DNA of 64,000 bases from a virus (Duplodnaviria; Heunggongvirae; Uroviricota; Caudoviricetes). The translations under genes were made by a program, and so were the position numbers. Shown one piece after another: positions 20,601-56,003 of this stretch (positions within the stretch are counted from its first letter, which is position 1; every line of letters begins with the position of its first letter). The notes beneath the pieces were generated by a model. That model was given only the letters and a program-made list of their open reading frames with translations. It was not told the DNA's origin and ran no database searches. The stretch lies in the IMG/VR virus record IMGVR_UViG_3300023213_000338; one strand, 5' to 3'.

Positions 20601-23400
20601 TGAAGACATGGCTTCTTCAGCGATAACTGCTTTAGCAAATGCAAGGAAAGCTTTAAAACCAAATCAATACGCATTCGTAGTAGACTTAGCAGAAGGAAAA
20701 GTACCCATGATTGGAGATAAAGTTGATATGGGCTTAGGAGAGGCGCAGGCACAAGAAATTCCTCCAGAGATTAAGAATTGGTTACAGGCGTGGGATACGG
20801 TTCGTAAAGATATTGCTACAAAAGCAAAAGCTATCGATCTTCAGACTCTTGATCCCGAAGGAGGGATGACAGTTCCTTGGGAGGGAAGAGATAATTATTT
20901 CCCTCATTATGTAACCAAAGAGCAAATGGATCAAATTCGAGCCAATCCAGATGCGACTCTTGATGGCATTATTAGAAGCGGAAAAGCAAGTAATGCTTTT
21001 GAGGCGAGGCTGTATTTAGATAAGCAGTTAGATGCTTTGAGAGCAAGAAGGTTTGGGAATTTGGAAATGCATAGAGGAGATATTGATATTCCTTATTTAA
21101 AAGATCCTCGTATTGCCGAAGATTATGTTAATGGTGCATATAAAAGAATAGCTTATGCCAACCAATTTGGAGCTTTTAATCAAGATGGTCAACGCTTGGT
21201 TGACAACATGATTGGGGAAGGTCGTCCATATGAGTCAAATGTTGCATCTGATCTTTTAAAGCAGGTTACGGGTTATCGTCCACAAAGCCCAGAGGAACAA
21301 GGAGTTGGAATGATTGGGAGAGCTGTTCGTGCAATCGAAACCCCTATGAAGTTAGGCTTAATTTCTCTTCACCACGGAGGACAGGTCGCTTCAATTGCTG
21401 CAAGGTCAGGCCTTGGGAACATGCTCAGAACTGCTCCTCAAGCAGTTTCTTCTTTACTATTTGACAACCAATCTCCTTTTGCTAGAAATGCGGTCTTGGA
21501 GCTTCATGACCTTGATAATAAATATGATCTTTATGGAGGATCTTCTAGACTTGATCAAAAGTTTCTCGGAGTGGTTGGTTTCGACAGAGTAATTAAAACG
21601 CTTCGTGCATGGGGAGCAGACGCTGCCCAAATGCAAGCTAAACAATTCGAAACAAAACTAGACGATTCGACAACAGCAAGATTTCTTAAAGGGGCAGGAC
21701 TTGATTATGATGCAATAAGACAAAGAGGATATCTTACTCAACCAGAAGTTAATCAATATGCAAGATCAGCCTTAAAAGATACAGCCCTTCTTTTTCAGCC
21801 AGGAGATTTACCAAAGCTTTGGAATACGCCAGTTGGAAGACTCATGACTATGTTTAAAACCTTTGGCTATAATCAGGCTACAAAGTTTGTTCCATACATA
21901 TTTAGAGAAGCAAGAGCAGGAAATGTAGCTCCTGCAATCGCATTCTTGACATTGGGAACAGGAATTGGTACAGGTGAACAGGTATTTCAAAATTTAATTC
22001 AAAATAAACCTGCTCCTACGATTGGGAAAACAATTGTTCAAGGTGCACTTAGAGGAGCTAATCCTGGAATTATAGGAAGTACAATTGCAAATACAATTAT
22101 GTACCCACAATATACAGCGTCTAATTTGGTTGGTTTAGTTGGTGGACCCGTAGCCTCTGATGTCATGAATGTAGGAGGATTAGTAAATAATGCTTTAAAT
22201 CCTCCTCAAGGACAAAATCAGGTTCAAATTAAAAACAATCAAATAACTGCAAATAGAGATTTAATTAGAAATGTTCCTTTGGTTGGCTCAACTTTAGCAA
22301 ACACTCTTTTCCCATATAAAAGTTATGTTGGTAATCGTCCATCAGATGTTCTTTCGGGAATGCTTACTGGACAACCAATAACTCATGGAACTGGAGATTT
22401 TGCTTATCAAACAACACCAACAGTTGCTGATTTACTAAGACCAAATCCTACAGTTATCGCTCAAACAAAACAAGCAACAACTATTGCTAAAAATGAAAAT
22501 TCAATTAAAGCTGGATTAGATGCTAATAGACAAACCCAACTTGATACTATCAATAACCTACTTCAGCTTCCTTACAATGGGGGAAATCAGCTTGATAAAA
22601 TTCATGCTTATGGGTTGTTAGCTAATGATGGGCAATTAGCCCTAGCTAAATCACAAATGGAGGCATCTAATGCAAAGACTACAAAAGATCCAGTTAATCC
22701 TTTATGGCAAATGGGACTTGTTAATCCACAAGCACAAAATATTGTTTTGCAATATAAGGCTTTATTGCCAGCAGACCAAAAAGCTTTTAAATCAGATCCT
22801 ACAAATCTAGCTATCTTAAACTCATATAATGCAGCGGAAACAGATTATTACAACAGTCTTCCTCCAACCAAACAAACCCAACAATTTGGTATTGTAGCTC
22901 CGTCTCCTTCAAAAGATGTACAAAACTTACTAAATCAGGCTAAGTCAACAAAAAACTATTCTTTATACAATGATTCAAAAGTGCAAGCATATTTTGCTCA
23001 ACTTGATTATTATGACAATTATATTAATGGATTGGCGGGATTACCCCCTGGAGCTGGAGGGACAACCAAAGGAGGGGGTGGAGGATATGGCTCTTCCAAT
23101 GGTTATATAGGCAATTTACCTAGTAACTATTTGGAACGCGCTCAACTTAGATCCTTTATATCTCAGGCTATGATGCTTGAAAACCAACCTGTCCCAATGA
23201 GATTTAAGGGAGTAGGAGGGTTTCAGCAACAACTCAGACAAAATCCTATTAATATAAATGCATTAACAGGAAATGTAGCATTAGCTCCAAGAGAAAGAGT
23301 TTCACCTGTTTTGGGACAACCAAAAGTTGGAGGAGTACAGCTTAGGCCATATCAGCAACCTACGAGTATGCATGGGCTTGGTATGGCAGCAGTAAGATAA
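17671..23400 (+). CDS. giant virion protein (1909 aa), Q-rich, with an internal ParB/Srx-like DGHHR motif; candidate internal/ejection or tape-measure-like protein
   Basis: Uninterrupted 5.7-kb ORF. DITDGHHRFPISR at about aa 395-407 resembles the ParB/sulfiredoxin-fold signature. The N-terminus is Q/G-rich and the C-terminus has a Gly-rich GGTTKGGGGGYGSSNGY patch. Confidence 0.6.
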   Translation: MDQFGNALNQTGKFFTGIGQDIGNTIENVASGLRDNLSNDWQGLSKSIQQPQIPSINNPVAQDATSSLLPMILQQGQYALQGKNVFGQQQPWSLSNPFAPAPRINAANQINTGNPVADFALKTAVGIPQSILNVPSDIQQGVGQTGQDIQSGKILQPQVAVSDIASIGLPIATLATLPMGGEVAEQAMQQGFGQALKEGALTGTKFGAGFGFGAGLQSGRNITNPQQYLQNLATNVGAGSLAGLAVGGTLGGASNLIGRGLQNMKDNEAVTLPDGLRVTREGINKFMDLKPQIDANYEQYANDPNIWQKLLPQDNFNDWYKSQEMNHTPGGPEALKDANGYFTFVNPFDMPPKVAESGDVMKGVAFDQFVSNNGVSDLPVVKQTYDENGNPNPLDITDGHHRFPISRSLGHQLVPVVMLDDKAPLLSDSFNQIKSGTPMRIGITSAQQANPQVAQFLDQGAKQMEAGDINGAIKTLQNVTDTTKGQLTDLLNDGATQVSRLETNTHGLYFGTPEPSYWLDLNSNNSNETLASLAKFAKDNQQDSFITGTKSQAGQNLGLSMNFGRPLSNEEVVAVQRIANAEGLGLTINQRTGETYSYNISQFDGLNPEEFKTKAEQAITALQAGGFKFSKSLDKYNLGVYTKDNYDGLISKSNRFGQVGAGLQPEGTTGGNISAEQPKGNAGSVLPQNAQLSPQETSIVKGRDKSIDIKDATAKVTEASKDVPVLQDVVDNATNAVNGVSQVALKDPQSLAQKVADDKGRTLENNPDTIRSTILAMDKDKAQQALDILKQDPTVQVVKEKNKVNPKTGYDAQHLQVKLPSGQTAEIQAHTPESLQTREIGHDQYKGEGTKGGIPPPPENIPTTNIFGSPQNYAVLTGLDKNRQEAGLPIPQQQWKNPIAGKGDMGDIPPFDKYGNQGKGAFQPGGAIPETQTPKPIGGIKALAKSLFVGERKVLADSPSTNANLFIKRLEDAANNHEDMASSAITALANARKALKPNQYAFVVDLAEGKVPMIGDKVDMGLGEAQAQEIPPEIKNWLQAWDTVRKDIATKAKAIDLQTLDPEGGMTVPWEGRDNYFPHYVTKEQMDQIRANPDATLDGIIRSGKASNAFEARLYLDKQLDALRARRFGNLEMHRGDIDIPYLKDPRIAEDYVNGAYKRIAYANQFGAFNQDGQRLVDNMIGEGRPYESNVASDLLKQVTGYRPQSPEEQGVGMIGRAVRAIETPMKLGLISLHHGGQVASIAARSGLGNMLRTAPQAVSSLLFDNQSPFARNAVLELHDLDNKYDLYGGSSRLDQKFLGVVGFDRVIKTLRAWGADAAQMQAKQFETKLDDSTTARFLKGAGLDYDAIRQRGYLTQPEVNQYARSALKDTALLFQPGDLPKLWNTPVGRLMTMFKTFGYNQATKFVPYIFREARAGNVAPAIAFLTLGTGIGTGEQVFQNLIQNKPAPTIGKTIVQGALRGANPGIIGSTIANTIMYPQYTASNLVGLVGGPVASDVMNVGGLVNNALNPPQGQNQVQIKNNQITANRDLIRNVPLVGSTLANTLFPYKSYVGNRPSDVLSGMLTGQPITHGTGDFAYQTTPTVADLLRPNPTVIAQTKQATTIAKNENSIKAGLDANRQTQLDTINNLLQLPYNGGNQLDKIHAYGLLANDGQLALAKSQMEASNAKTTKDPVNPLWQMGLVNPQAQNIVLQYKALLPADQKAFKSDPTNLAILNSYNAAETDYYNSLPPTKQTQQFGIVAPSPSKDVQNLLNQAKSTKNYSLYNDSKVQAYFAQLDYYDNYINGLAGLPPGAGGTTKGGGGGYGSSNGYIGNLPSNYLERAQLRSFISQAMMLENQPVPMRFKGVGGFQQQLRQNPININALTGNVALAPRERVSPVLGQPKVGGVQLRPYQQPTSMHGLGMAAVR

Positions 23401-33696: not shown

Positions 33697-34506
33697 TTAT
33701 TTTGTTAAATTCAAGAACGGTATCGGAGTTCCTGCTCCCAAATAAGTTGGTAGCTCTCCATTCCATTTTTCTATAGAGAGTTTTTGTAAAATCTCTGAAG
33801 TAAGCGTCTGTTGCAAAAGCTTTTGGGCATCTGCTTGACCCTGAGCTGTAGCAACTGTTGCTTGAGCGTTTGCTTGGGCTGTTTTAACTTCATTTTCAGC
33901 TGCAATAGCATGCTGGTTTGCAACTTGAGCGTCCTCAATCGCTTGATTAAATTTATCTGAGAAATTAATATTTGTTATTGACAGATTGTCTATCACAACA
34001 TAATATTGTTTCATTTTTGTTTGTAAAACATTTAAAGCCGTAGTTGCAACATTATCTCTGTTTTTTTGAACATCTAAAGCTACATATTTTGAGACGGCAG
34101 CTTTAATAGAGTCTTTTGTATTATTATCTAAAACATTTGTTGCAATTGCATCTATATCTCCTACCCGTTGATAGATTTTATTAACTTCTCCTGCGTTTAG
34201 ATGCCAATTAACAGAAACTTTAATATCAACCTGTTGGGAATCTGAAGTTCCTGCACTATCTGCTCCTGTTTCAGCGTAGGTGCTGATTTGAGTTCTGACT
34301 GGCATGATAACAACATTTTCTATAAGAGGAACTCTAAAATGAACTCCTTCTCCCAAGATTCTGTTTTCAACTCCTGTAGTATTATTAAATACAACTCCTC
34401 TTTCACCTGCTCCTACAACTACAATTGGGAAAAAGGCTATAATAATTATTATTGCTATAAAAAGAGCAATTCCTACGATAATTAATCGCTGTTTGTTTTG
34501 ATTCAT
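33697..34506 (-). CDS. SPFH/band-7 (stomatin/prohibitin/HflK-C-like) membrane protein
   Basis: An N-terminal TM helix precedes VVVGAGERGVVFNNTTGV...HFRVPLIENVVIMPVRTQ (the SPFH core). The C-terminus is an Ala/Gln-rich coiled coil. Confidence 0.7.
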   Translation of the reverse strand: MNQNKQRLIIVGIALFIAIIIIIAFFPIVVVGAGERGVVFNNTTGVENRILGEGVHFRVPLIENVVIMPVRTQISTYAETGADSAGTSDSQQVDIKVSVNWHLNAGEVNKIYQRVGDIDAIATNVLDNNTKDSIKAAVSKYVALDVQKNRDNVATTALNVLQTKMKQYYVVIDNLSITNINFSDKFNQAIEDAQVANQHAIAAENEVKTAQANAQATVATAQGQADAQKLLQQTLTSEILQKLSIEKWNGELPTYLGAGTPIPFLNLTK

Positions 34507-35192: not shown

Positions 35193-35840
35193 TCATATGA
35201 TTTTGTCAACCAAATTCAATTCCAAAGCCTCTTTTGCGGTTAACCAACAATCCTTTTTTTTAATAAGAGATAGAATTTTAGCTTTACTCATTCCAGACCG
35301 TAGAGCCAAAATGCTAACCAATTGTTCATTAAGCTTTTTAAGTTCTATGGTCTTATCTTCCGCATCCGAGGCAGTATCGATTCCAAAGTTAAAATTTGAA
35401 ACCTCGTGGATAAGAATTTTCGCATTTTGAGCTATATGTCTTTCATCTCCAGCTTGAAGAATAATCGCTCCCATTGAAGCTGCATAACCCTTAGTCTCAA
35501 TGGTAATATAGCCTCCCTGTTTTTTATATTCTGACAATGCATCATAAACAGCAAGGCCATCAAAAACATTTCCTCCTGGAGAGGTTAAAATAAGCCTAAG
35601 TTTTTTAATTTCTCTATTTAGAAGCTCATATATCTGAAGAAAAACTTCTTCTCCTGAACCTTGTCCTATTTCATCGTCAAGATAAATAATTCCCCTAGAC
35701 AGAAGTTGCATTCTCAGAAATCCAAAATAATCTAGTTGAAGATTGGGAATAGTTTGAATAGAACGAATTGAGGGACGATTCCTTTTAAGTATTTTACTAT
35801 GAATGATTTTGTCTGCATCTGAGTGTATTCCTTTTCTCAT
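35193..35840 (-). CDS. ClpP-family (S14) serine peptidase
   Basis: LILTSPGGNVFDGLAVYDAL, GYAASMGAIIL (catalytic Ser) and AKILIHEVS (catalytic His) align with ClpP. Confidence 0.75.
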   Translation of the reverse strand: MRKGIHSDADKIIHSKILKRNRPSIRSIQTIPNLQLDYFGFLRMQLLSRGIIYLDDEIGQGSGEEVFLQIYELLNREIKKLRLILTSPGGNVFDGLAVYDALSEYKKQGGYITIETKGYAASMGAIILQAGDERHIAQNAKILIHEVSNFNFGIDTASDAEDKTIELKKLNEQLVSILALRSGMSKAKILSLIKKKDCWLTAKEALELNLVDKII

Positions 35841-42016: not shown

Positions 42017-42087
42017 TGCCGAGTCGACTAACGGTAAGTCAATTGCCCTTGGAGCAGTTTATCTACGTTCGAGTCGTAGCGCGGCAA
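42017..42087 (+). tRNA. tRNA-Gln (anticodon UUG), CCA not encoded
   Basis: Manual cloverleaf: acceptor tgccgag/cgcggca (one A-G mismatch), U8, D arm gact-aacggta-agtc, anticodon arm attgc-ccTTGga-gcagt, variable loop ttat, T arm ctacg-TTCGAGT-cgtag, discriminator A. Position 33 is C rather than U. Confidence 0.5.
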
Positions 42088-42095
42088 CTTAAAAT

Positions 42096-42242: not shown

Positions 42243-42316
42243 GCGACTGTAGTTAATTGGCTTAACGTTTCCCTTCCAAGGAAAGGAAGAGAGTCCGATT
42301 CTCTCTAGTCGCTCCA
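42243..42316 (+). tRNA. tRNA-Gly (anticodon UCC) with encoded CCA
   Basis: Manual cloverleaf: acceptor gcgactg/tagtcgc (one GU), D arm gtta-attggct-taac, anticodon arm tttcc-cTTCCaa-ggaaa (perfect stem, U33, A37), variable loop ggaa, T arm gagag-tccgatt-ctctc, discriminator T, CCA. Confidence 0.55.
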
Positions 42317-46413: not shown

Positions 46414-46534
46414 TAAATCTTGCTCGAGCTAAACAATTTTTGTGAATATTACATTTTTCTCTTTGTAAATCAAAAACTTTCTCAAAATTCTCTTTAAACT
46501 TCTTTTCTATAGCTTTAGGTAAAGTGTTTTTCAT
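46319..46534 (-). CDS. hypothetical small protein
   Basis: 71-aa ORF whose stop overlaps the next gene. Confidence 0.3.
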   Translation of the reverse strand: MKNTLPKAIEKKFKENFEKVFDLQREKCNIHKNCLARARFSAPIRAEDFDSIIDFLSYVYKRGREDERNER

Positions 46535-47133
46535 TTATTTGGAAATATACTTTTTCCGTTCCAAGGACAATCTTTTAAACATTCTTTTTTGTGTAGCTTT
46601 TTCCAACCATCCTCTGTTGTAGGAATATCACCTAAGACTGGTTTTAAAAGTTTTAAACGAATTCCTACTTCTTCCTTTGGTTTATTTTTCTTTATATAAT
46701 TTATTCTTGCCCTGATTGGTTCAGTAAGCCATTCATATAAAATTGTCTCGTGAATATGCCACCAATAATCAGTTTGATCTGAGTCAATATTTTTTGCACT
46801 TGCAAGATCTATTTGACGAAAAACCATTCCTTGAACATTTGTTCCTGAAAAATCTGTTCTCTCAAGATGTGTTCCCCAAAAAATAACATCTCTAAGATCT
46901 GCTCCTGAAAAATCTACTCCTTCCATGTTTGCTCCTCGAAAATTTGCTCCTCTAAGATTTGCTTTTTGAAGATTTGCTCCCATAAGATCTGTTGCTACAA
47001 GATTTGCTCTCCAAAGTTTTACTCCTCTTTTAACTGCTTCTTCAAGAGTATCTTTGATAGTATTGTTTTCTTTTTCATATTCAAACAATATTTCTCTCGT
47101 TATCCATTCTTTGATTTGTATTTTACTTTTCAT
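46531..47133 (-). CDS. pentapeptide-repeat protein (Qnr/MfpA-like DNA-mimic fold)
   Basis: ANLVATDLMGANLQKANLRGANFRGANMEGVDFSGADLRDVIFWGTHLERTDFSGTNVQGMVF forms tandem A(D/N)LxX pentapeptides. Confidence 0.65.
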   Translation of the reverse strand: MKSKIQIKEWITREILFEYEKENNTIKDTLEEAVKRGVKLWRANLVATDLMGANLQKANLRGANFRGANMEGVDFSGADLRDVIFWGTHLERTDFSGTNVQGMVFRQIDLASAKNIDSDQTDYWWHIHETILYEWLTEPIRARINYIKKNKPKEEVGIRLKLLKPVLGDIPTTEDGWKKLHKKECLKDCPWNGKSIFPNK

Positions 47134-49011: not shown

Positions 49012-49040
49012 ATTATACAACAATTAATATTTTTTGTCAA
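49012..49040 (-). promoter_or_regulatory. minus-strand sigma70-type promoter (TTGACA-N17-TATAAT)
   Basis: Reverse complement reads aTTGACAaaaaatattaattgttgTATAATa. Confidence 0.5.
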
Positions 49041-49143: not shown

Positions 49144-50625
49144 TTATCTGTGAATTAACGATCGCATCATTTCGATCATTTTTAAAGGTAACTGTTCAAT
49201 TTTAGGAACTGCGATATATGTGGGATAAAATTGCTTCAAATAATCGCTTGTTAGCCCTACTCCAATTGCAATAAGAGTCGCGTTTTTTTCTTTTTCAATT
49301 TTGTGGATTAGGGTTCGCATTGTGCTTGAATTAACTCCTATTCCGCCATCAGTCATCATAAGAACAATGTTATCATCGTATTTATTAATATTTTTATAAG
49401 TTACATCTAAGGCAAGAAACTCATTGTTTCCCCCCCCACGCATTTTACGATAAACAGAAAGATCGGAAATTACTTGTGTCGTATGGTTGAATCTGATATA
49501 TTTTATTTCAAACTTTAATCTTTTCATAGCTTCGTTAATTAAAAAAGATGCAATATATGTTTGAGCATGAAAATATCCTTCCATGCTTCCGCTTTCATCC
49601 AGAACAAAAGTTATTGAGTAATGAGGCGTATCTGGATTTGTGCGTTTGCTAAAAAGCCTAGTTTCATCAGAAACTGTAACTTTGTATGCGTTTTTAGATA
49701 GTAACCTTCCCTTTTTATGTGCTCCTGTGTAACGAACTGAAGCTTTTTCTTTAAGAATATCTGCTAGGCGTTGTGTTAGGGTATGAATATATCCTCCCAA
49801 AAGAGACCTTAATTCTTCATCTGAGGGAATGTCTGTTAAATATTCTTCCATTTTTCCCTCAAACGACCTATCGGGTTTTCCCTCCCTGAGTTCTTCTTCA
49901 ATGGATTTATTACCATCCGCTTTGCCCTCTCTTTGTTCTTTCTCTAATTGTTTATCGGCTTCGTCTAGGAAGGGTTTTGCGTGTCTATAGATATATTGGT
50001 CAACCAATTGTTTAAGAACTTCTGTTGAAGAGGCATTGAGTATCTTCCCAACACAGGCTTGAATATCTGAATCTGCGGAACTTAAAGCTTTTTTAACTTC
50101 TGTAGAGTTATAGTCTCGTAGATCTCTGGCTAGATAATAAAGATTATTTCTACTCCACTCAACTATTTTCCCAGAATAAAATCTTTGTAAATTTGTGCTA
50201 TCCAGAAATTCCATTAATTTAGTTCGTTCTAACATTTTAAGTTTAGCCAAAGAGATTCTTCCTATTAAGCCCCAAGTAGAACAATGAGCCAGAGCTTGTA
50301 TTGCAAAACCTCTATATTGTTGCATAAGCAAATATTCAATTCTCATATCTTCAAATTGGTTATAAACATATTGCATCGAGGGATGTTTTATTAAGTTTGG
50401 GGTATCTTTTTGAATTTTATCTGTGAATAAAATATGTCCAACTTCATGGATAATGATTCCTTTTGCTACCAATGCGGGCGCAAAGACGAGATCGGTGGGA
50501 TTATATGTAACTTCCCTTTTGGCGACGTTCGTAACCCACTTTTTCCCTTCTTTGAATGTAATTTTATTCTCGTTGGATAAAGCTGTAATAAGAGCTTCAA
50601 GATAAGATCGAGTTGTCCTAAACAT
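49144..50625 (-). CDS. von Willebrand factor A (vWA) domain protein with N-terminal HExxH metallopeptidase-like motif; last gene of the Ubl/AAA operon
   Basis: TFVLDESGSMEG is the MIDAS DxSxS motif. IIHEVGHILF is an N-terminal HExxH. It is co-oriented with the MoxR gene with a 15-nt gap. Confidence 0.65.
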   Translation of the reverse strand: MFRTTRSYLEALITALSNENKITFKEGKKWVTNVAKREVTYNPTDLVFAPALVAKGIIIHEVGHILFTDKIQKDTPNLIKHPSMQYVYNQFEDMRIEYLLMQQYRGFAIQALAHCSTWGLIGRISLAKLKMLERTKLMEFLDSTNLQRFYSGKIVEWSRNNLYYLARDLRDYNSTEVKKALSSADSDIQACVGKILNASSTEVLKQLVDQYIYRHAKPFLDEADKQLEKEQREGKADGNKSIEEELREGKPDRSFEGKMEEYLTDIPSDEELRSLLGGYIHTLTQRLADILKEKASVRYTGAHKKGRLLSKNAYKVTVSDETRLFSKRTNPDTPHYSITFVLDESGSMEGYFHAQTYIASFLINEAMKRLKFEIKYIRFNHTTQVISDLSVYRKMRGGGNNEFLALDVTYKNINKYDDNIVLMMTDGGIGVNSSTMRTLIHKIEKEKNATLIAIGVGLTSDYLKQFYPTYIAVPKIEQLPLKMIEMMRSLIHR

Positions 50626-50640
50626 CTGTCAGTTCCTCCA

Positions 50641-51939
50641 TTAAAGTGATTTTTTTTGTGTTGGATTAGAAGTTTTTTTATTAGAGGTAGTAATTTTTTT
50701 GGATGCTTTTTGGATGATTTTTTCGATTTGTTGATATTCTTTGATTTGGTCTTGGAGTTCTTCATTTTTTTTTCTTTCGGCTTCGATTTCTGTTTTCTGA
50801 CCTTCAATTACCTTCTTTATCTCGTCTGCCGTTAAATTAAGCTTCTCCAAAGTTTTTTCTAATTCGTCTATAGCTTTTAATTGCGTAGCCAATTCTCTTT
50901 CTTTATCTAAAATCAATCCTTCTGCTTTTTCTGCACGATGTTTCAATGTCTCAAATTCTTTTTTGGTAGTAATTATAGGAGTTGTTCCTTTATCTTCAGC
51001 TTCAGCTTGTTTATTAATGGCTAAGAAAAAATCTAATAAGGCTTTTTGTTCGTCTTTGTTATTGGTTTTTTTAACAACAGTTGTACTCCAAGCATTTTGT
51101 GGCTTCATGCCAGAGGAGATAAGTTTAGCCGTATTAAGGAGGCTACGAGTGGAGACATATAGGAATATCTTTTGTTCCAAATAGTCTTTTCTAGCCATCG
51201 TAGCTGTTATTACCAATATATTTGCCATCTCCTCAGAGATTTTTGTACGGCTAACCAACAATTCCTTTTCTTTGTCTGGAGCTAACGTATCAACTGATAT
51301 TATGATTGGGAAACGATCCAAAAAAGCCTTATTCATTGATTTTGTGCCTTCATAATCGGGGTTACAAGTTGCAAAAACTCTAAAATTTGGATGAGGATAA
51401 ATAACTTCTCCGTTAGGAAGCGTTATTCTCCTATCTTCGTCTAAAAGTCCATGAAGAATAAACAAGCAATCTGGGGTGGTTGCATTAATCTCATCTATAA
51501 CCAAAATTGCTCCGCGTTGCATGGCATTGGTAATAACTCCGTGTTCGTAATATGTCTCATTGCCTTTATCGGTCGCTCGGACGGACTTGCTCCCTATGAG
51601 CTCATCTGGGGTCGAAAACCCATGCATGTTTACACGCACATAGGGTTGTTGTCTGAGATATGCCAATCGTCTAACGGCTGAAGTTTTGGCTACCCCCGTC
51701 TCTCCAATTAATAAAACAGGTAGATTCTCCTTTATCCCCAAAGCAATTGCATCTTTGTCGTTTATTGGTAGAATAACCTCAAGTGCTTCTTTTGGAACTA
51801 ACGGATCGTTTTGCTCGTTGATTTTTTCCAACTCAATAGAACCAAATAGGAAAGAGTTTTCTTTTACTACCGCCAACGCTTTTGGAGCTTCTGGTTCTGG
51901 AGTAATAGAATCTGTTTTTTTAATTTTAGTTTTTTTCAT
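50641..51939 (-). CDS. MoxR-family AAA+ ATPase with C-terminal coiled coil
   Basis: LLIGETGVAKT is Walker A, AILVIDEIN is Walker B, FATCNP is sensor 1, and FLDRF carries the arginine finger. This is the MoxR/RavA arrangement paired with a vWA protein. Confidence 0.8.
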   Translation of the reverse strand: MKKTKIKKTDSITPEPEAPKALAVVKENSFLFGSIELEKINEQNDPLVPKEALEVILPINDKDAIALGIKENLPVLLIGETGVAKTSAVRRLAYLRQQPYVRVNMHGFSTPDELIGSKSVRATDKGNETYYEHGVITNAMQRGAILVIDEINATTPDCLFILHGLLDEDRRITLPNGEVIYPHPNFRVFATCNPDYEGTKSMNKAFLDRFPIIISVDTLAPDKEKELLVSRTKISEEMANILVITATMARKDYLEQKIFLYVSTRSLLNTAKLISSGMKPQNAWSTTVVKKTNNKDEQKALLDFFLAINKQAEAEDKGTTPIITTKKEFETLKHRAEKAEGLILDKERELATQLKAIDELEKTLEKLNLTADEIKKVIEGQKTEIEAERKKNEELQDQIKEYQQIEKIIQKASKKITTSNKKTSNPTQKKSL

Positions 51940-53060
51940 TTTTTATCTCCAATAACTTTATCGATGTTGATTTCCCTATCTTCATCTAAGAGTGAGTAGT
52001 CTTGCTTCATTGAAGTCCCATTACTAACAGAAGAACTTGGTTTATCAGATAAAGCAGAGAAGCTTTCTTTTTCTTGTTTCTCTTTTTTAATTGCATCGAC
52101 AAAATATTTCATTGAGATTGTTTTAGCCTTATCATAAGCACATTTTCTTGCAGCCATTAAGATTGTATTTTTAATATTGCCACCACTCAAAGGAATTTTA
52201 GCAAGTATTTCAAAGTCAACGTCTTTTCCAATAGGAGCTTTCTTAGGTATTAGACGTTCCCAGATTAGCTTTCTTTCAGACTCATTTGGAAAAGGAAATT
52301 CGATTTTGGTTGTGATACGACGTTCTAAAGCAGGATCAAGTTTGCCTAAGCGATTAGTGGTAAGAATAACGATTCCTTCATAGCGTTCAATTTCGGAAAG
52401 CAAGATATTAACTTGAGAAGATACGATTGGTCCAACAGCATCTCGATTGTACAAAAGCGAATCACACTCGTCAATCAAGATTACATCTTTCTTGTTTTCA
52501 GGTGAGCTTTCGGCACTTATAAAAGCCTTAGTAATATTCTTTTCAGTTTCTCCCCAAAGGTAGGAACTCATTGTATTCATGTCCAGTTTCTTAAGACCTA
52601 GCCCTAATTCATTAGCAATCGCTTCAGCCATAAGACTTTTCCCCGTTCCCGAAGACCCATAGAAAAGAAGCGTCATTCCCATTCCCTTTTCCAAAACTTC
52701 ATTGAAGCCCCATTCCTCAAAGATCAGTTGCTTGTTTTGTTCCTGAGCAATTGTAGCTTGAATCTCCTTTTTCTTTTCTGGGCTAAGTACTACGCTTTCA
52801 ATGTTAAGGTTCTTGATAGGATTTTCTTTAATAAAAACAATTGACTTATCTTTTTCAATTCTCATTTTATATCCCATTGGAGAAACAATTTCTTCAACCG
52901 CTTCTTTTGCCAATTCAACATTGAAGTATGGATAAAGATCAGTTAGCTTAAATTCTTTCGGGTGGGTATGAATAATTTCTTGAATTGCACTTTTTAAAGT
53001 AGTCTGATTAAGATGGGTAAAAACTGGAAGTGGCTTAGGTTGATTAATATTATTTGGCAT
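51936..53060 (-). CDS. classical-clade AAA ATPase (Cdc48/FtsH/proteasomal-ATPase-like unfoldase module)
   Basis: LLFYGSSGTGKSLMA is Walker A, VILIDECDSL is Walker B, and VILTTNRLGKLDPALERR is the second region of homology. Confidence 0.8.
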   Translation of the reverse strand: MPNNINQPKPLPVFTHLNQTTLKSAIQEIIHTHPKEFKLTDLYPYFNVELAKEAVEEIVSPMGYKMRIEKDKSIVFIKENPIKNLNIESVVLSPEKKKEIQATIAQEQNKQLIFEEWGFNEVLEKGMGMTLLFYGSSGTGKSLMAEAIANELGLGLKKLDMNTMSSYLWGETEKNITKAFISAESSPENKKDVILIDECDSLLYNRDAVGPIVSSQVNILLSEIERYEGIVILTTNRLGKLDPALERRITTKIEFPFPNESERKLIWERLIPKKAPIGKDVDFEILAKIPLSGGNIKNTILMAARKCAYDKAKTISMKYFVDAIKKEKQEKESFSALSDKPSSSVSNGTSMKQDYSLLDEDREINIDKVIGDKK

Positions 53061-53061
53061 G

Positions 53062-53388
53062 TTAGTTAACTATCCTTTCTTTTTTCTTTTCCTGTTTTTC
53101 TTTTAACGCCTGCTCGATATCAAATTCAGGCTCTTTCGGTTCTGGAGTTGGATTGGTTTTTGGTTTTACTCCCATTGCCTTATATATTTCATTCATAATA
53201 TCTTTAATATCGATTCCCATTTTGGCCAATTCATCGCCAGCTGCAATATATAGAGCTTGAGATAGGATTTGCTGAAACTCTTTACTTTCTCTTAAACCCT
53301 CGACTAATAAATCTATAATTTCAATTTCTTTACCTTGTAATTCAAACCTAACTCCTTTTGCCTCATGCTCCAAATATAGTTTTGCCAT
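53062..53388 (-). CDS. small acidic/helical protein of unknown function within the Ubl operon
   Basis: 108-aa ORF lying 1 nt from the AAA gene start. Confidence 0.45.
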   Translation of the reverse strand: MAKLYLEHEAKGVRFELQGKEIEIIDLLVEGLRESKEFQQILSQALYIAAGDELAKMGIDIKDIMNEIYKAMGVKPKTNPTPEPKEPEFDIEQALKEKQEKKKERIVN

Positions 53389-53400
53389 AGTGTGTGGGTT

Positions 53401-54000
53401 TTATCCCTCTTCTCCTATAAAAAGGTCTTTTAAACCCTTCTTAATCGCCCTACCAACGTCTTTTATGTCCTCGCTGGTAAATAATTCGTCGCCTCGGACT
53501 TTTTCTTTGATTTCTTTTATAATCTCTTCTTTCATTTCTTTGTCTCCAAGATCAACTTCGAATTCAACTTGATCAAACTCATATCGGAAAGGAGCGAATA
53601 AATCTACCCTACATAAATTATCACCCTTATGGTTTGTAACAAGAGAGATTATATAATTATGCGAATCCATTTCTGAATCCCATTCTTCAATTGTTGCAGT
53701 ATCTATGCCAGAAAAGAAAGCTCCCATTCTGTTATGTGAATGCCACCAAAGCTTCCAATCACTCATTTTTTCTCCCTTGGACAATAAATCGCTAAAGAAT
53801 TTTCCAAGATCAGTTCTGTTTAAAACAGTGTTTGCTCCGCTAACTTTTTGTTTAAAGATTCGTATATCCTCAACATAAAAGATTGTTTCCCCATTGATAT
53901 ATTCCGATCTGACTTTGCCAAGCCCAGAGATTTCAAGTTCCGTGTTCTCAACGTAGTGTCTGAGTTTCTGGTACAGTTTGATTGGGATAATAACTTTCAT
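53401..54000 (-). CDS. JAB/MPN (JAMM) metallopeptidase, predicted Ubl-processing/deconjugating enzyme
   Basis: WWHSHNRMGAFFSGID is an exact H-x-H-x7-S-x2-D JAMM motif. An upstream conserved Glu is present in TELEISGLG. Confidence 0.8.
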   Translation of the reverse strand: MKVIIPIKLYQKLRHYVENTELEISGLGKVRSEYINGETIFYVEDIRIFKQKVSGANTVLNRTDLGKFFSDLLSKGEKMSDWKLWWHSHNRMGAFFSGIDTATIEEWDSEMDSHNYIISLVTNHKGDNLCRVDLFAPFRYEFDQVEFEVDLGDKEMKEEIIKEIKEKVRGDELFTSEDIKDVGRAIKKGLKDLFIGEEG

Positions 54001-54003
54001 AAT

Positions 54004-54804
54004 TTAAGATTGCCTAGCTTCTAACGATCGGATAGCGTCTTCTAAGGCTTGTAATCTTTGATGAATTGCATTTGTAAAATTAATATCTCTAGTATAAGGA
54101 TAAGGAACATTAAGTTCAGCAAGAAGCATATTTCTTTTCGCTCTCATCGTGTCTAATCCATTTAATTGATTTTGATAGGTTGCTTGTGTGTATTGAGCTT
54201 CCTGTATCCCAGAAGGAGCTGTTTGTGTTCTTGGTTGTGGTTGATAAGATGCTTGTCTTATTCCCCGATCGTACTGATCAAAATCAAATCCTCTTGGGCA
54301 TGGAGTTGCTCCTTTTAACCATTCATCCCAATTTGTATAACCAGCATCCTCGCTTTTTACGCTTGCAATATAATATAAACAAGTGTCAACGAGTTTTTGA
54401 AGATTTTGAGCTACCCATAATTTCTCAATCTCTAACTTTATTCCATATTTTCCACTCCCCCAACAAGGTTTTGTGTCACTAATTGTCGGATTATCTAAAT
54501 TATAGTAGCGTTGTGAAATATTTAAAATTCTTATCATTTCAGTTGAGTTTTTAAAATTTATTCTTATTTGGTATTGACCAGCAACTTTGTTTCTTCTATT
54601 TACTTTAATATATATCGGTTGGGTTGTAATCGTGATTCTATTCTGACTGTCTACAGAAACATTTTTTATCATGTATTGTTTTTTAATCTTTATTAGTAAG
54701 TCCCTGTCTTTCCAAGGAATGATTTTCTGTTTGAGGTTATTAATCCCTCGCTCAATGGTTGCGAGGGGATTAAGTAACATTAATTTTCTTAAAGAAAGTG
54801 CCAT
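54004..54804 (-). CDS. candidate E2-like (UBC-fold) conjugating protein; unknown fold otherwise
   Basis: 266-aa ORF located between the Ubl and JAB genes. YYNLDNPTISDTKPCWGSG places a Cys about 9 residues after an NP, reminiscent of HPN...C. A helix (WVAQNLQKLVDTCLYYIAS) follows. This is a contextual inference only. Confidence 0.35.
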   Translation of the reverse strand: MALSLRKLMLLNPLATIERGINNLKQKIIPWKDRDLLIKIKKQYMIKNVSVDSQNRITITTQPIYIKVNRRNKVAGQYQIRINFKNSTEMIRILNISQRYYNLDNPTISDTKPCWGSGKYGIKLEIEKLWVAQNLQKLVDTCLYYIASVKSEDAGYTNWDEWLKGATPCPRGFDFDQYDRGIRQASYQPQPRTQTAPSGIQEAQYTQATYQNQLNGLDTMRAKRNMLLAELNVPYPYTRDINFTNAIHQRLQALEDAIRSLEARQS

Positions 54805-55044
54805 TTATTTTTCCCCTCCTTCGATTTGTCTTGTCAGGATAACCTGATCCCCATCTTTAAGTTTATGTTCCAAAACATTACCTGTTAATTCAGACCCATT
54901 AAGCTGAACGGTCTCATTTGATTTTCTACTTATTCCCATTGCTATTAATGCTTCACCCACTGTTTGTGCTCCAGTAAGAGGAATTTGTTTTGCATCGCCT
55001 CCCATTTTTCCAACTGTGACAAATATATTTTTCTTTCTAGCCAT
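54805..55044 (-). CDS. ThiS/MoaD-like ubiquitin-like beta-grasp protein with C-terminal GG followed by an EK tail
   Basis: 79 aa ending ...LKDGDQVILTRQIEGGEK. It aligns with ThiS ...VQDGDQILLFQVIAGG. The two extra residues after GG imply peptidase processing. Confidence 0.65.
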   Translation of the reverse strand: MARKKNIFVTVGKMGGDAKQIPLTGAQTVGEALIAMGISRKSNETVQLNGSELTGNVLEHKLKDGDQVILTRQIEGGEK

Positions 55045-55058
55045 ATATCCTCCTTTCT

Positions 55059-55748
55059 TTAGATTAATGAATAACTTGGAATATCAAGCGTAATCTCGCT
55101 TCTTATTTTCTCTTTTGTGGCAAAACGTTTGATAATGTTTGTTACAAGACCAGCACAAATTAGAGTGTTATAGGCAATTGCCCGAGCCGTGCATTTTTCA
55201 CCACTTGGCTTAATTTTAGAAAACAGTTTATTATGATAATTTTCCATTTGTTCAAAATCTTGTGTATTGATAGTATAGATTCTAATAAGCTCAGCTCCCA
55301 TACGAGCATCAATATAAAGCTTTAATGTTTTTAACGTTTCTTTGCTTCTAACAATCTGTCCCCAGATTTCCTTGCGTTGCAAGATTGAATCTACGGCAGA
55401 GATAATTACGGTTGGAGCTTTATATTCTTTAGATAAGATGTATTCTTGAAAAGAGGTTATAACTCCAGTAATTGAAGCTCCAGAGAGGGAATGAATGATG
55501 TGTTTTAAAGAATTGACTTTTAAATCCTCTATCTGGGGGGAATACAATTGAGAGGGGGCATTGTGTTTTTCTGTTTTATCATAGTCTATAGCTGTTAAAT
55601 TGGAGCATCCCATTTTTGAAAGAGATAAAGCTGTCCAAGAACCTATTCCGCCTACGCCTATTAATGTTATTGGAAAGTTTAATTGTGAAGGTTTGACAAT
55701 ATCCAATTGCCTAAGAAAAACTTGTCGGTCATCAATGTTCTGTCTCAT
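55059..55748 (-). CDS. minimal E1-like adenylyltransferase (ThiF/MoeB/UBA fold)
   Basis: LDIVKPSQLNFPITLIGVGGIGSWTALSLSKMGCSNLTAIDYDKTEKHNAPSQL has the Rossmann GxGxxG and the D.D.VE.SN..RQ signature. ISAVDS is the Mg/ATP Asp. It is 229 aa with no rhodanese domain. Confidence 0.65.
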   Translation of the reverse strand: MRQNIDDRQVFLRQLDIVKPSQLNFPITLIGVGGIGSWTALSLSKMGCSNLTAIDYDKTEKHNAPSQLYSPQIEDLKVNSLKHIIHSLSGASITGVITSFQEYILSKEYKAPTVIISAVDSILQRKEIWGQIVRSKETLKTLKLYIDARMGAELIRIYTINTQDFEQMENYHNKLFSKIKPSGEKCTARAIAYNTLICAGLVTNIIKRFATKEKIRSEITLDIPSYSLI

Positions 55749-55759
55749 TTCTTGTTATT

Positions 55760-55788
55760 ATTATACAATATTGTAGAGGAAAAATCAA
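55760..55788 (-). promoter_or_regulatory. minus-strand sigma70-type promoter (TTGATT-N17-TATAAT) driving the E1-Ubl-JAB-AAA operon
   Basis: Reverse complement reads cTTGATTtttcctctacaatattgTATAATa, 12 nt upstream of the E1 start codon. Confidence 0.55.
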
Positions 55789-56003
55789 GAGGTATTTTAA
55801 AAAGAAAATATAAATAATCGCTTATTTATTCCCAAATACGCTCGTCAGCTTTCTTTGGAGTATTGTAGTTTTTATAATTTACCCATGTTCCAGCCTTTTT
55901 AACATAAGTTCGGCCTGTGAATACACCTTGGTTTTTACTCATGGGTCGTGAAACTCTTTCATGAGAGATATCTCCTTTGTTGTGTCTAGCTCCTTTTGAC
56001 ATA

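What the first reader, a model, noticed from the sequence alone, without database searches (positions are those of the whole stretch)
49144..55795. Phage-borne operon for ubiquitin-like conjugation and deconjugation: E1-like, Ubl, E2-like candidate, JAB peptidase, AAA unfoldase, MoxR AAA+ and vWA protein
Eight co-oriented, tightly packed minus-strand genes sit behind a single consensus promoter (55760-55788). In order they are:
- a 229-aa ThiF/MoeB-fold E1 (GVGGIGS...DYDKTEKHN);
- a 79-aa ThiS/MoaD-like Ubl ending GG-EK;
- a 266-aa protein with an NP...C arrangement (E2-like candidate);
- a JAB/MPN protein with an exact HxHx7Sx2D motif;
- a 108-aa protein;
- a classical AAA ATPase (Walker A/B plus SRH);
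- a MoxR AAA+ ATPase;
- a vWA protein with MIDAS and HExxH motifs.
The combination E1 + Ubl with a cleavable tail + JAB + E2-like is the hallmark of prokaryotic ubiquitin-like conjugation cassettes. Coupling it to two ATPase remodellers and a vWA/zincin module, inside a phage genome, is unusual. It suggests protein tagging followed by unfolding or remodelling, for virion maturation, host takeover or anti-defence.
Basis: partly seen in the sequence, partly recalled or inferred. Interest (0 to 1): 0.9.

Follow-up and report, generated by a model that had tools for sequence, protein, structure and literature searches.

The report
Phage-encoded ubiquitin-like protein tagging cassette
A large uncultured phage carries a four-gene kit (activating enzyme, small ubiquitin-like tag, a very divergent conjugating enzyme, and a tag-removing peptidase), so a bacterial virus probably tags proteins much as eukaryotic cells do; three protein-remodelling genes sit next to the kit.

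Summary
All eight minus-strand genes exist as described and are tightly packed (gaps of -4 to 15 nt).

**Core cassette (E1, Ubl, E2-like, JAB).**
- The E1 is a minimal 229-aa ThiF-type enzyme.
- The 79-aa protein is a beta-grasp Ubl ending GG-EK.
- The JAB carries the full JAMM motif and is closest to Rpn11-type deubiquitinases.
- These four genes recur together in at least 12 other distinct metagenomic or viral loci.

The most likely function is Ubl conjugation and deconjugation, not sulfur transfer.

**Accessory genes.**
- The Cdc48-like AAA recurs in two other loci.
- The MoxR/vWA pair is a CobS/CobT-like module that is widespread on its own in phages. It has no ortholog in any other cassette locus.
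- A different MoxR plus zincin-vWA pair does flank the cassette in two related phages.
- A bacterial MoxR-vWA-FtsH system with a Ubl set is a published precedent.

Coupling of the three accessory genes to the cassette is therefore plausible but unproven. The "consensus promoter" is not evidential. The targets and the biological role are unknown.

**Verdict:** a new, phage-borne variant of a known kind of system.

The parts
55059..55748 (-). Minimal E1-like Ubl-activating enzyme (229 aa). It is a single ThiF/MoeB-type adenylation domain with no separate CYS domain, no UFD and no CxxC zinc site.
   Evidence: Pfam ThiF 5e-14. A family profile against the PDB hits UBA5 at 1e-19, then UBA6, TcdA, UBA1, ThiF/MoeB, BubCD and Cap2. 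Invariant residues are G31xG33xxG36, D55, D57, N63, K77, D120 and R125; Cys186 is near-invariant, in EKCTARAI. I judge Cys186 to sit at the UBA5 Cys250 / ThiF Cys184 position from my own knowledge of those sequences. In one search that segment aligned to UBA5 only in a stretch that did not score significantly.
54805..55044 (-). Ubiquitin-like modifier precursor (79 aa). Beta-grasp fold with a C-terminal GG followed by a 2-residue tail (EK).
   Evidence: Profile against the PDB: PF1061 4e-5, SAMP2 6.6e-5, ThiS 4e-4, TtuB, with the alignment ending at the C-terminal GG. AF2 model pLDDT 77 with a beta-grasp strand/helix order. Foldseek hits SUMO, Caldiarchaeum ubiquitin, MoaD and ISG15 at probability 1.0, TM 0.5-0.7. 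In 8 of the 10 aligned homologs GG is followed by 0-3 variable residues; the other two read AG-L and NG-KN.
54004..54804 (-). Divergent E2-like (UBC-fold) conjugating enzyme (266 aa). The core is residues ~30-185 with invariant Cys114. The C-terminus has a Q-rich linker and two helices.
53401..54000 (-). JAMM/MPN+ (JAB) metallopeptidase (199 aa). Predicted to remove the EK tail from the Ubl and to cleave Ubl conjugates.
   Evidence: E23, H87, H89, S97 and D100 are invariant in 13 homologs. Profile against the PDB: Caldiarchaeum Rpn11-like protein 2.6e-10, Rpn11/PSMD14 2e-8, CSN5, AMSH.
53062..53388 (-). 108-aa protein of unknown function with an acidic, lysine-rich C-terminus. It lies between the JAB and AAA genes.
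   Evidence: No hit in any library. The only homolog is on L001, at the same position after the JAB gene.
51936..53060 (-). Classical-clade AAA ATPase (374 aa). Single ATPase domain with Walker A/B, pore loop YLWGE and a second region of homology. Likely a protein unfoldase.
   Evidence: PF00004 4.6e-25. PDB best hits are Cdc48/p97/VAT at 3e-34. PADLOC IetA 5e-31. There is a 48%-identical ortholog directly after the JAB gene in L011. L004 has another classical AAA 1.8 kb after its E1.
50641..51939 (-). MoxR-class AAA+ ATPase (432 aa), CobS/CbbQ-like, with a coiled-coil, lysine-rich C-terminal extension.
   Evidence: AAA_5 3e-30, CbbQ_C 2.9e-11, bpMoxR 2.6e-9. phrog_249 2.7e-45. TIGR01650 CobS 3e-22, far below its cut-off. 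tblastn finds 379 phage records, mostly cyanophage CobS at 27-28% identity.
49144..50625 (-). CobT-like protein (493 aa) with an N-terminal HExxH (zincin-like) region and a C-terminal vWA domain with MIDAS motif DESGS. Partner of the MoxR ATPase.
   Evidence: CobT_C 3.8e-6 and VWA 3.5e-4. Matches phrog_1576, phrog_5298 and phrog_17276 (CobT) and phrog_459 (peptidase). The cobST pair is described as a widespread phage module in PMC8651126.
55760..55788 (-). Promoter-like site TTGATT-17-TATAAT upstream of the E1 gene. Not verifiable.
   Evidence: 10 of 12 matches. The number of such sites in the region is no higher than in shuffled sequence, and the -10 ends 11 nt before the ATG.

Best explanation
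The core of the finding is a phage-encoded ubiquitin-like conjugation and deconjugation cassette (55748-53401).

Proposed mechanism; every step is inferred from homology and none is shown experimentally:
1. The JAMM peptidase trims the EK tail and exposes the Ubl C-terminal Gly-Gly.
2. The minimal ThiF-type E1, probably a dimer, adenylates that glycine and takes it as a thioester on Cys186.
3. The Ubl passes to Cys114 of the divergent UBC-fold E2.
4. The E2 transfers the Ubl to lysines of a target, with no E3 detected. Variable N- and C-terminal extensions of the E2 family probably provide target recognition.
5. The same JAMM peptidase reverses conjugation.

The cassette lies in the early/replication arm of the phage, not among virion genes. 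The targets are therefore more likely host or phage non-structural proteins than virion parts.

The adjacent Cdc48-like AAA, possibly with the 108-aa protein as an adaptor, is a recurrent optional accessory. It may unfold or extract tagged proteins.

The CobS/CobT-like MoxR + zincin-vWA pair is best read as a separate, widely distributed phage chaperone module that is co-transcribed here. I put the chance that it works together with the cassette at about 40%.
For: All four core functions were tested.
- E1.
- Ubl fold and GG terminus.
- JAB: full JAMM motif and Rpn11-like best hits.

Co-occurrence across loci:
- E1, Ubl, E2-like and JAB are adjacent in L001, L011, L012, L014, L015/16, L017/18 and L020. 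L019 (a short contig) has E1-Ubl-E2 followed by a cut-off ORF.
- The order Ubl-E2-JAB-E1 occurs in IMG/VR loci L003, L005, L007 and L008. L004 has E2-JAB-E1 with a tandem di-Ubl downstream. This is the BilABCD gene order.

No sulfurtransferase or cofactor genes flank the cassette.

Accessory genes:
- AAA: Cdc48/VAT-like, and present next to the cassette in L011 and L004.
- MoxR/vWA: L011 and L012 carry a different MoxR + DUF2201_N/DUF2201 pair directly upstream of the E1.
- Published precedent: MoxR + vWA + FtsH-type AAA with JAB, E1, E2-Ubl and RING (PMC7159879).
Against: - There is no biochemical evidence at all.
- The canonical HPN triad is replaced (N-P-T in this protein).
- The E1 family lacks the Arg of the NLxRQ motif, has no CYS or UFD domain, and by sequence is as close to ThiF, MoeB and TcdA as to true E1s.
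- SAMP2-, TtuB- and Urm1-type Ubls can be both sulfur carriers and modifiers.
- The AAA is absent from most cassette loci.
- The window's MoxR/vWA have no ortholog in any cassette locus. Their relatives occur in hundreds of phages without a Ubl cassette.
Confidence: 0.72

Rival explanations
1. All eight genes form one machine, a phage counterpart of the bacterial MoxR-vWA-FtsH "ternary" conflict systems. The MoxR/vWA pair would assemble or gate a complex. The Ubl cascade would tag a substrate. The AAA would unfold it while the Rpn11-like JAB strips the tag, giving a proteasome-lid-like logic.
For: - The eight genes are tightly packed and co-oriented, with overlapping or near-abutting stop and start codons and no internal terminator.
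- A perfect promoter consensus appears only after the vWA stop.
- A non-orthologous MoxR + zincin-vWA pair abuts the E1 in L011 and L012. An AAA abuts the JAB in L011.
- The published bacterial systems have the same component list.
- The MoxR passes the Pfam bpMoxR cut-off.
- JAB best hits are Rpn11; AAA best hits are Cdc48/VAT.
Against: - Most cassette loci lack an AAA, a MoxR and a vWA.
- L011 and L012 are related phages, so their shared synteny may reflect common descent.
- The window's MoxR/vWA belong to the stand-alone phage cobST-like family.
- No RING E3, EAD1, beta-propeller or caspase effector is present.
- The AAA has a single domain and is not FtsH-type.
Confidence: 0.3
2. The cassette is a phage-carried anti-phage defence or superinfection-exclusion system of the Bil kind. 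It would tag a competing phage's structural protein and so protect the infected or lysogenic cell.
For: - It has the same component set as BilABCD, and the IMG/VR relatives have the same gene order. BilABCD is a bacterial defence system that conjugates a Ubl to a phage tail fibre.
- The AAA matches the defence ATPase IetA/IteA.
- MoxR-vWA systems are proposed conflict systems.
- A ParB-like gene in the window could mean a plasmid-prophage lifestyle.
Against: - The cassette holds a syntenic place in the replication/early arm across a diverse phage clade. It is not a patchy moron.
- No integrase or repressor was seen.
- The E1 (single domain) and the E2 (unannotated family) are not Bil-family members by sequence.
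- JAB-ThiF pairs sit in the replication modules of the cultured phages crAss001 and FpV4.
Confidence: 0.15
3. The E1, Ubl and JAB form a sulfur-carrier system of the ThiS/MoaD/CysO-Mec+/TtuB type. It would serve tRNA thiolation or cofactor or nucleotide modification during infection. The 266-aa protein would not be a conjugating enzyme.
For: - The Ubl profile's best PDB hits are SAMP2, ThiS and TtuB.
- The E1 hits ThiF, MoeB and TcdA nearly as well as UBA5.
- Public records annotate the crAss and FpV4 homologs as "thiamine biosynthesis protein".
- A JAB plus sulfur-carrier combination is known from CysO/Mec+ (Iyer et al. 2006).
Against: - A UBC-fold protein with an invariant cysteine in the catalytic register is strictly linked to the E1, Ubl and JAB in at least 12 loci.
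- There is no rhodanese, cysteine desulfurase, PP-loop ATPase, ThiG/ThiH or MoaE in the flanks.
- The JAB is closest to Rpn11-type isopeptidases.
Confidence: 0.08

Closest known systems
BilABCD (Type I/II Bil) bacterial ubiquitination-like defence systems (Hör et al. 2023 preprint, 10.1101/2023.09.04.556158; Chambers et al., PMC10557695)
   Same: It has four separate proteins: a Ubl, an E2, a JAB deubiquitinase and an E1. The Ubl has a conserved C-terminal glycine followed by a short non-conserved tail that the JAB removes. The IMG/VR relatives of this cassette have the same gene order, Ubl-E2-JAB-E1.
   Different: Here the carrier is a phage, in its early/replication arm. The E1 is a 229-aa single adenylation domain, whereas BilD has inactive + active adenylation domains and a CYS domain. 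The E2 belongs to a family with no match in Pfam, NCBIfam or PADLOC. The gene order in the window is E1-Ubl-E2-JAB. The target and role are unknown.
FtsH ternary MoxR-vWA conflict systems with a Ubl-conjugation set (Kaur, Burroughs, Iyer, Aravind 2020, PMC7159879)
   Same: It combines a MoxR AAA+, a vWA protein and a second classical AAA ATPase with a JAB, an E1, an E2 and a Ubl in one gene neighbourhood.
   Different: The published systems are bacterial and occur in multicellular lineages. Their AAA has two FtsH-type domains. The Ubl is fused to the E2 and to EAD1. A RING E3 and a caspase-like effector are present. The vWA is fused to a beta-propeller or ClpN. None of these features is present here, and the window's MoxR/vWA are CobS/CobT-like.
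Archaeal SAMP / UbaA / HvJAMM1 sampylation, and the Caldiarchaeum ubiquitin-Rpn11 operon
   Same: The Ubl profile is closest to SAMP2 and PF1061. The E1 is a small ThiF-type enzyme. The JAB is closest to the Caldiarchaeum Rpn11 homolog. A Cdc48/PAN-like AAA is nearby.
   Different: Sampylation has no E2. The Caldiarchaeum operon has a canonical ubiquitin, a canonical E2 and a RING E3. Here the E2 is highly divergent, no E3 is seen, and the carrier is a phage.
Phage cobST (CobS/CobT-like MoxR + vWA) two-gene module (PMC8651126)
   Same: The MoxR (phrog_249; cyanophage CobS at 27-28% identity) and the vWA protein (CobT_C; CobT PHROGs; HExxH often annotated as a peptidase) match this module in both architecture and pairing.
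   Different: Both proteins score far below the CobS equivalog cut-off. No CobN or cobalamin context is present. Here the pair is packed behind a Ubl cassette and an AAA gene.
CBASS type II Cap2/Cap3
   Same: E1-like and E2-like activities plus a JAB peptidase. The E1 domain gives weak PADLOC E1-E2 and NCBIfam 6A-MBL cap2_3 hits.
   Different: Cap2 is an E1-E2 fusion that conjugates a CD-NTase. It has no free Ubl. No CD-NTase or effector is present here.
Lambda/T1 tail assembly proteins TAPI (Ubl) and TAPK (JAB + NlpC/P60) (Iyer et al. 2006, PMC1779556)
   Same: A Ubl with a C-terminal glycine next to a JAB peptidase, encoded by a phage.
   Different: TAPI/TAPK lie in the tail module and have no E1 or E2. 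The cassette here is in the non-structural arm and has a full E1-E2 relay.

Membership tests
Prokaryotic Ubl-conjugation cassette (generic: E1 + Ubl + E2 + JAB) | E1-like adenylation domain with nucleotide-binding and Mg-binding residues and a cysteine after the crossover loop | tested here: met
   ThiF 5e-14. GxGxxG, D55, K77 and D120 are invariant; Cys186 is near-invariant. UBA5 1e-19. Caveat: the Arg of NLxRQ is replaced by Ser.
Prokaryotic Ubl-conjugation cassette (generic: E1 + Ubl + E2 + JAB) | Beta-grasp Ubl with a C-terminal Gly(-Gly) | tested here: met
   beta-grasp model, SUMO/Ub/MoaD/SAMP structural and profile hits, and GG + 0-3 residues in 8 of 10 homologs.
Prokaryotic Ubl-conjugation cassette (generic: E1 + Ubl + E2 + JAB) | UBC-fold E2 with a catalytic cysteine | tested here: met
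Prokaryotic Ubl-conjugation cassette (generic: E1 + Ubl + E2 + JAB) | JAMM/MPN+ peptidase with E...HxHx7Sx2D | tested here: met
   The motif is invariant in 13 homologs. Rpn11-like PDB hits at 2.6e-10.
Prokaryotic Ubl-conjugation cassette (generic: E1 + Ubl + E2 + JAB) | Formation of Ubl~E1 and Ubl~E2 thioesters and of isopeptide conjugates | not testable with these tools
   This needs biochemistry or mass spectrometry.
BilABCD | E1 (BilD) with inactive + active adenylation domains and an inserted CYS domain | tested here: not met
   The E1 is 229 aa with one adenylation domain. Some relatives carry a separate second small ThiF gene, but the window does not.
BilABCD | E2 (BilB) sequence family | tested here: inconclusive
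BilABCD | Ubl with a conserved Gly followed by a short tail removed by the JAB | tested here: met
   The sequence pattern is met (against the description). The cleavage itself was not tested.
FtsH ternary MoxR-vWA system | Third component with two FtsH-type AAA+ domains, the N-terminal one inactive | tested here: not met
   There is a single AAA domain. It is closer to Cdc48, IteA, CdvC and PAN than to FtsH.
FtsH ternary MoxR-vWA system | RING-type E3, Ubl-E2 fusion with EAD1, and a caspase-like effector | tested here: not met
   No such domains occur in the eight proteins or the flanks. The Ubl and the E2 are separate genes.
Cobaltochelatase CobS/CobT | Scores at equivalog level and a CobN partner or cobalamin context | tested here: not met
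   TIGR01650 scores 79 bits against a cut-off of 558. No CobN was detected among the ORFs I scanned. The resemblance is to the phage cobST-like module only.
Sulfur-carrier systems (ThiS/ThiF, MoaD/MoeB, CysO/Mec+, TtuB/TtuC) | A linked sulfur donor or acceptor enzyme (ThiG/ThiH, MoaE, CysM, TtuA, rhodanese) and no E2 | tested here: not met
   An E2-like gene is strictly linked. No such enzymes lie in or beside the operon. ThiF/MoeB NCBIfam scores are far below their cut-offs.
IetAS defence system | IetA ATPase paired with an IetS subtilisin-like protease | tested here: not met
   The AAA hits IetA at 5e-31, but no IetS-like protease is adjacent.

The most novel reading that the evidence does not exclude
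A clade of large tailed phages runs its own complete, E3-independent ubiquitin-like tagging pathway during infection, built around a previously unrecognised E2 family. In some members, including this one, the pathway is coupled to a Cdc48-like unfoldase, an Rpn11-like deubiquitinase and a MoxR/vWA chaperone. That would make a virus-encoded "tag, unfold, remove the tag" system that reprogrammes or destroys host or rival-phage proteins. It would be a bacterial-virus analogue of how eukaryotic viruses exploit ubiquitin. It may extend in degenerate form to crAss-like phages, which carry JAB-ThiF pairs.
Probability: 0.25. Interest if true: 0.9.

Novelty: new variant of a known kind. Interest (0 to 1): 0.68.

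Why it matters
Bacterial ubiquitin-like conjugation has so far been characterised as a host weapon against phages (Bil, and CBASS Cap2/Cap3). A complete E1-Ubl-E2-deubiquitinase set that is conserved in the replication arm of a diverse group of phages would put the same chemistry in the hands of the virus.

It raises directly testable questions:
- What does a phage tag?
- Does tagging lead to unfolding or degradation?
- Is it takeover, counter-defence or exclusion of rival phages?

It also defines an E2-like family of about 79 clusters at 50% identity that no domain library recognises. It flags the "thiamine biosynthesis protein" and "metalloprotease" annotations in cultured crAss-like and Flavobacterium phages as probable E1/JAB pairs. 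Those cultured phages offer systems that can be tested in the laboratory.

Tried and rejected
**Searches that found nothing or little**
- blastn of the whole region against INPHARED phages: no match.
- Single-sequence pattern scans of IMG/VR with the 266-aa protein and the JAB: nothing. Alignment-based patterns were needed.
- tblastn of the 266-aa protein against cultured phages: no match.
- Pfam on all 79 family members: no family.
- PDB sequence and profile search for the 266-aa family: only coiled-coil noise.
- Rfam on 48-57 kb: nothing.
- Literature searches for phage-encoded E1/E2/Ubl/JAB cassettes, or for crAss + ThiF: nothing. The only near case was an Asgard-virus preprint reporting viral E1-like genes.

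**Ideas tested and not supported**
- That crAss001 gp78 or FpV4 gp52 are members of the E2-like family: hhalign probability 0.7%, and no HMM hit.
- That a second ThiF gene, seen in relatives, also exists in the window: none found.
- That the window's MoxR/vWA are orthologs of the L011 pair: only about 19% identity over the P-loop region.

**Practical limits**

Full report
**1. Observation**

| Gene | Coordinates | Length |
|---|---|---|
| E1 | 55059-55748 | 229 aa |
| Ubl | 54805-55044 | 79 aa, ends IEGGEK |
| 266-aa protein | 54004-54804 | 266 aa |
| JAB | 53401-54000 | 199 aa |
| 108-aa protein | 53062-53388 | 108 aa |
| AAA | 51936-53060 | 374 aa |
| MoxR | 50641-51939 | 432 aa |
| vWA | 49144-50625 | 493 aa |

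Intergenic distances are 14, 0, 3, 12, 1, -4 and 15 nt. No minus-strand terminator-like site lies inside the block. All quoted motifs are in the translations.

The "consensus promoter" is TTGATT-17-TATAAT, 10 of 12 matches. Promoter-like sites are no more frequent in the region than in shuffled sequence (25 found, 27.8 expected). The -10 ends 11 nt before the ATG, so I give it no weight. A perfect TTGACA-17-TATAAT lies just after the vWA stop (49040-49012), which fits the end of the unit. Rfam finds nothing in 48-57 kb.

**2. Context**

- G+C is about 35%. Most ORFs between roughly 28.7 and 59 kb are on the minus strand; this arm includes a PD-(D/E)XK-type exonuclease, a Band_7 protein, a ClpP-family protease and a ParB-like protein. 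Two tRNA genes and two larger ORFs at 40-42 kb are on the plus strand.
- The plus-strand genes at 0-27 kb include a 1909-aa ORF, an M23 peptidase and a glycine-rich tail-fibre-like protein.
- The window is not close to any cultured phage.
- The exact 266-aa protein is on a 99,862-bp JGI contig.
- Homologs of the cassette lie on IMG/VR viral contigs, in L008 a few kb from a portal gene.
- The flanks of the cassette hold only small ORFs of unknown function and a pentapeptide-repeat protein. There are no sulfur or cofactor enzymes.

**3. The four core proteins**

*E1.*
- Pfam ThiF scores 5e-14.
- A 13-member family alignment keeps GxGxxG, D55, D57, N63, K77, D120 and R125. Cys186 (EKCTARAI) is nearly invariant.
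- The family profile hits UBA5 best (1e-19), then UBA6, TcdA, UBA1, NAE, ThiF, MoeB, BubCD and Cap2.
- The protein is a single adenylation domain with no CYS domain, no UFD and no CxxC zinc site. The Arg of the usual NLxRQ motif is Ser.
- Sequence alone cannot separate a sulfur-carrier E1 from a conjugation E1.

*Ubl.*
- Single-sequence Pfam hits were sub-threshold: Ub-Mut7C 0.005 and ThiS 0.012.
- A 10-member profile hits PF1061, SAMP2, ThiS and TtuB (4e-5 to 2.5e-3), with the alignment ending at the terminal GG.
- The AF2 model (pLDDT 77) has the beta-grasp order of strands and helix.
- Foldseek matches SUMO, Caldiarchaeum ubiquitin, MoaD, ISG15 and NEDD8 at probability 1.0 and TM 0.5-0.7.
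- In 8 of the 10 aligned homologs the protein ends [IV]-x-G-G plus 0-3 variable residues; the other two read AG-L and NG-KN. The same pattern is described for Type II BilA, whose tail the JAB BilC removes.

*The 266-aa protein.*
- No library recognises it.
- The word-indexed search found one relative. The exhaustive HMMER search found 79 representatives, which share residues ~30-185.
- None of the 79 has a Pfam hit, and the profile finds nothing real in PDB sequences.
- With this alignment AF2 gives a core pLDDT above 90.
- Foldseek gives no significant hit, but its best 50 are again almost all E2 or UEV.
It gave probability 57% over 140 columns. It puts the family motif D-[SH]-P-[TH]-I-x2-T-x-[PC]-C-W-G-N on HPNI...C, with Cys114 on UBE2D2 Cys85.
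- Cys114 is present in 93 of 93 sequences, G116 in 94 of 94 and P106 in 87 of 94.
- I conclude that this is a strongly diverged UBC-fold enzyme. The HPN triad is not conserved (N-P-T here).

*JAB.*
- E23, H87, H89, S97 and D100 are invariant in 13 homologs.
- The profile's best PDB hits are the Caldiarchaeum Rpn11 homolog (2.6e-10), Rpn11/PSMD14 (2e-8), CSN5 and AMSH.

**4. Linkage across loci**

- The order E1-Ubl-E2-JAB recurs in L001, L011, L012, L014, L015/16, L017/18 and L020. L019, a short contig, has E1-Ubl-E2 followed by a cut-off ORF.
- The order Ubl-E2-JAB-E1 occurs in L003, L005, L007 and L008. L004 has E2-JAB-E1 with a tandem di-Ubl downstream of the E1. In these loci the E2 domain sits in 323-699-aa proteins.
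- L011 and L012 are related phages; they share an exonuclease, Band_7 and other genes at 30-45% identity. The IMG/VR loci are much more distant.
- The four genes therefore form a conserved unit in a diverse phage group. Many relatives add a second small ThiF (185-199 aa), which the window lacks.

**5. The other four genes**

*AAA.* It is a classical-clade ATPase. Best hits are Cdc48/p97/VAT at 3e-34, and it carries the pore loop YLWGE. It also matches the defence ATPase IetA/IteA, but no IetS protease is present. An ortholog (48% identity) follows the JAB in L011. An unrelated classical AAA lies 1.8 kb after the E1 in L004. Other loci have none.

*108-aa protein.* Its only homolog is in L001, at the same position.

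*MoxR and vWA.*
- They match the phage CobS/CobT-like families: phrog_249 at 2.7e-45 and the CobT PHROGs. There are 379 phage records, mostly cyanophage CobS at 27-28% identity.
- This is a two-gene module known to be widespread in tailed viruses, whose CobT is often mis-annotated as a peptidase (PMC8651126).
- Neither protein has an ortholog in any other cassette locus.
- L011 and L012 do carry a different MoxR (AAA_5) + DUF2201_N/DUF2201 (metallopeptidase + vWA) pair immediately upstream of the E1. It is only about 19% identical to the window's pair.
- L015 has a vWA-TerF-like gene 2 kb upstream.
- Kaur et al. 2020 describe bacterial "FtsH ternary systems". These join a MoxR, a vWA and an FtsH-type AAA+ with a JAB, an E1, a RING E3, a Ubl-E2 fusion and a caspase-like effector. 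This is the closest precedent for the whole eight-gene combination. Its defining details (double FtsH domain, RING, EAD1, effector) are absent here.

**6. Mechanism and rivals**

The best-supported reading is a phage-encoded Ubl conjugation/deconjugation cassette. The JAB matures the Ubl. The E1 adenylates it and probably forms a thioester on Cys186. The Ubl is then transferred to E2 Cys114 and on to target lysines without a recognisable E3. The JAB reverses the modification. The domain identities, the motifs and the gene linkage are shown; the chemistry, the targets and the role are inferred.

The position in the non-structural arm argues for host or non-structural targets rather than virion maturation. 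The same holds in crAss001 and FpV4, where a JAB-ThiF pair sits among replication genes.

The rivals are:
- a single integrated eight-gene machine (confidence about 0.3);
- a phage-carried Bil-like exclusion system (about 0.15);
- a sulfur-carrier pathway (about 0.08).

The strictly linked UBC-fold protein and the lack of sulfur enzymes count against the sulfur-carrier pathway.

**7. Novelty**

Prokaryotic E1/E2/Ubl/JAB operons have been known computationally since 2006 and experimentally as the Bil, Bub and CBASS systems. I found no description of a complete cassette conserved in phages, nor of this E2-like family. The nearest report is of viral E1-like genes in Asgard viruses. The searchable library is incomplete, so prior description cannot be excluded.

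I rate the finding as a new variant of a known kind, with interest 0.68.

Noticed in passing
L021 (Bacteroides phage crAss001, MH675552.1, gp75-gp78) and L023 (Flavobacterium phage FpV4, gp49-gp52): These cultured crAss-like and Fipvunavirus phages carry the order X (420-444 aa, no Pfam hit in crAss001; FpV4 gp52 not scanned), then a JAB (annotated "metalloprotease" in crAss001; hypothetical in FpV4), then a ThiF (annotated "thiamine biosynthesis protein"). The genes sit in the replication module. That is the same order as the IMG/VR cassettes. However, HMM searches detected no Ubl and no p266-type E2 there, and hhalign between the X proteins and the E2 family gave probability 0.7%.
   Followed up: partly
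L011 12381-12980, L012 11495-12088, L015 6997-7587, L017 12354-12923: A second, smaller ThiF-family protein (189-199 aa) follows the cassette in several relatives. It may be a heterodimer partner or a second E1. No counterpart exists in the 64-kb window.
   Followed up: partly
L004 10948-11358: In this IMG/VR relative the Ubl is a tandem di-beta-grasp protein (two Ubl domains in 136 aa), located downstream of the E1.
   Followed up: no
L017 12920-14404 and L018 4531-6015: A NAMPT/NAPRTase (NAD salvage) gene directly follows the cassette and the second ThiF in these relatives.
   Followed up: no
window 35193-35840 (-) and 33697-34506 (-): A ClpP-family protease (PF00574, 9e-30; PHROG "head maturation protease") lies 0.7 kb from a Band_7/stomatin-like protein, in the non-structural arm. 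I did not examine whether it is a prohead protease, an NfeD-like partner of Band_7, or a protease that could work with the AAA unfoldase.
   Followed up: no
window 46531-47133 (-): A 200-aa pentapeptide-repeat protein (PF00805, 1.4e-32) lies 2 kb downstream of the operon. Its function was not examined.
   Followed up: no
window 17671-23400 (+): A 1909-aa ORF with no PHROG match at all. Several other large plus-strand ORFs nearby (697, 650, 450 and 301 aa) likewise have no PHROG hit and no informative Pfam hit.
   Followed up: no
window 42017-42088 and 42243-42316 (+): Two phage-borne tRNA genes, tRNA-Gln(TTG) and tRNA-Gly(TCC).
   Followed up: no
window 49012-49040 (-): A perfect sigma-70 consensus (TTGACA-17-TATAAT, 12 of 12) lies immediately after the vWA stop codon, ahead of the next run of small minus-strand ORFs.
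   Followed up: no
window 55059-55748 (E1) and alignment A5: The whole phage E1 family replaces the conserved Arg of the E1/MoeB "NLxRQ" motif with Ser or Asn (HN[AL]PSQ). The Arg in the N-terminal RQ motif is kept in most members.
   Followed up: partly
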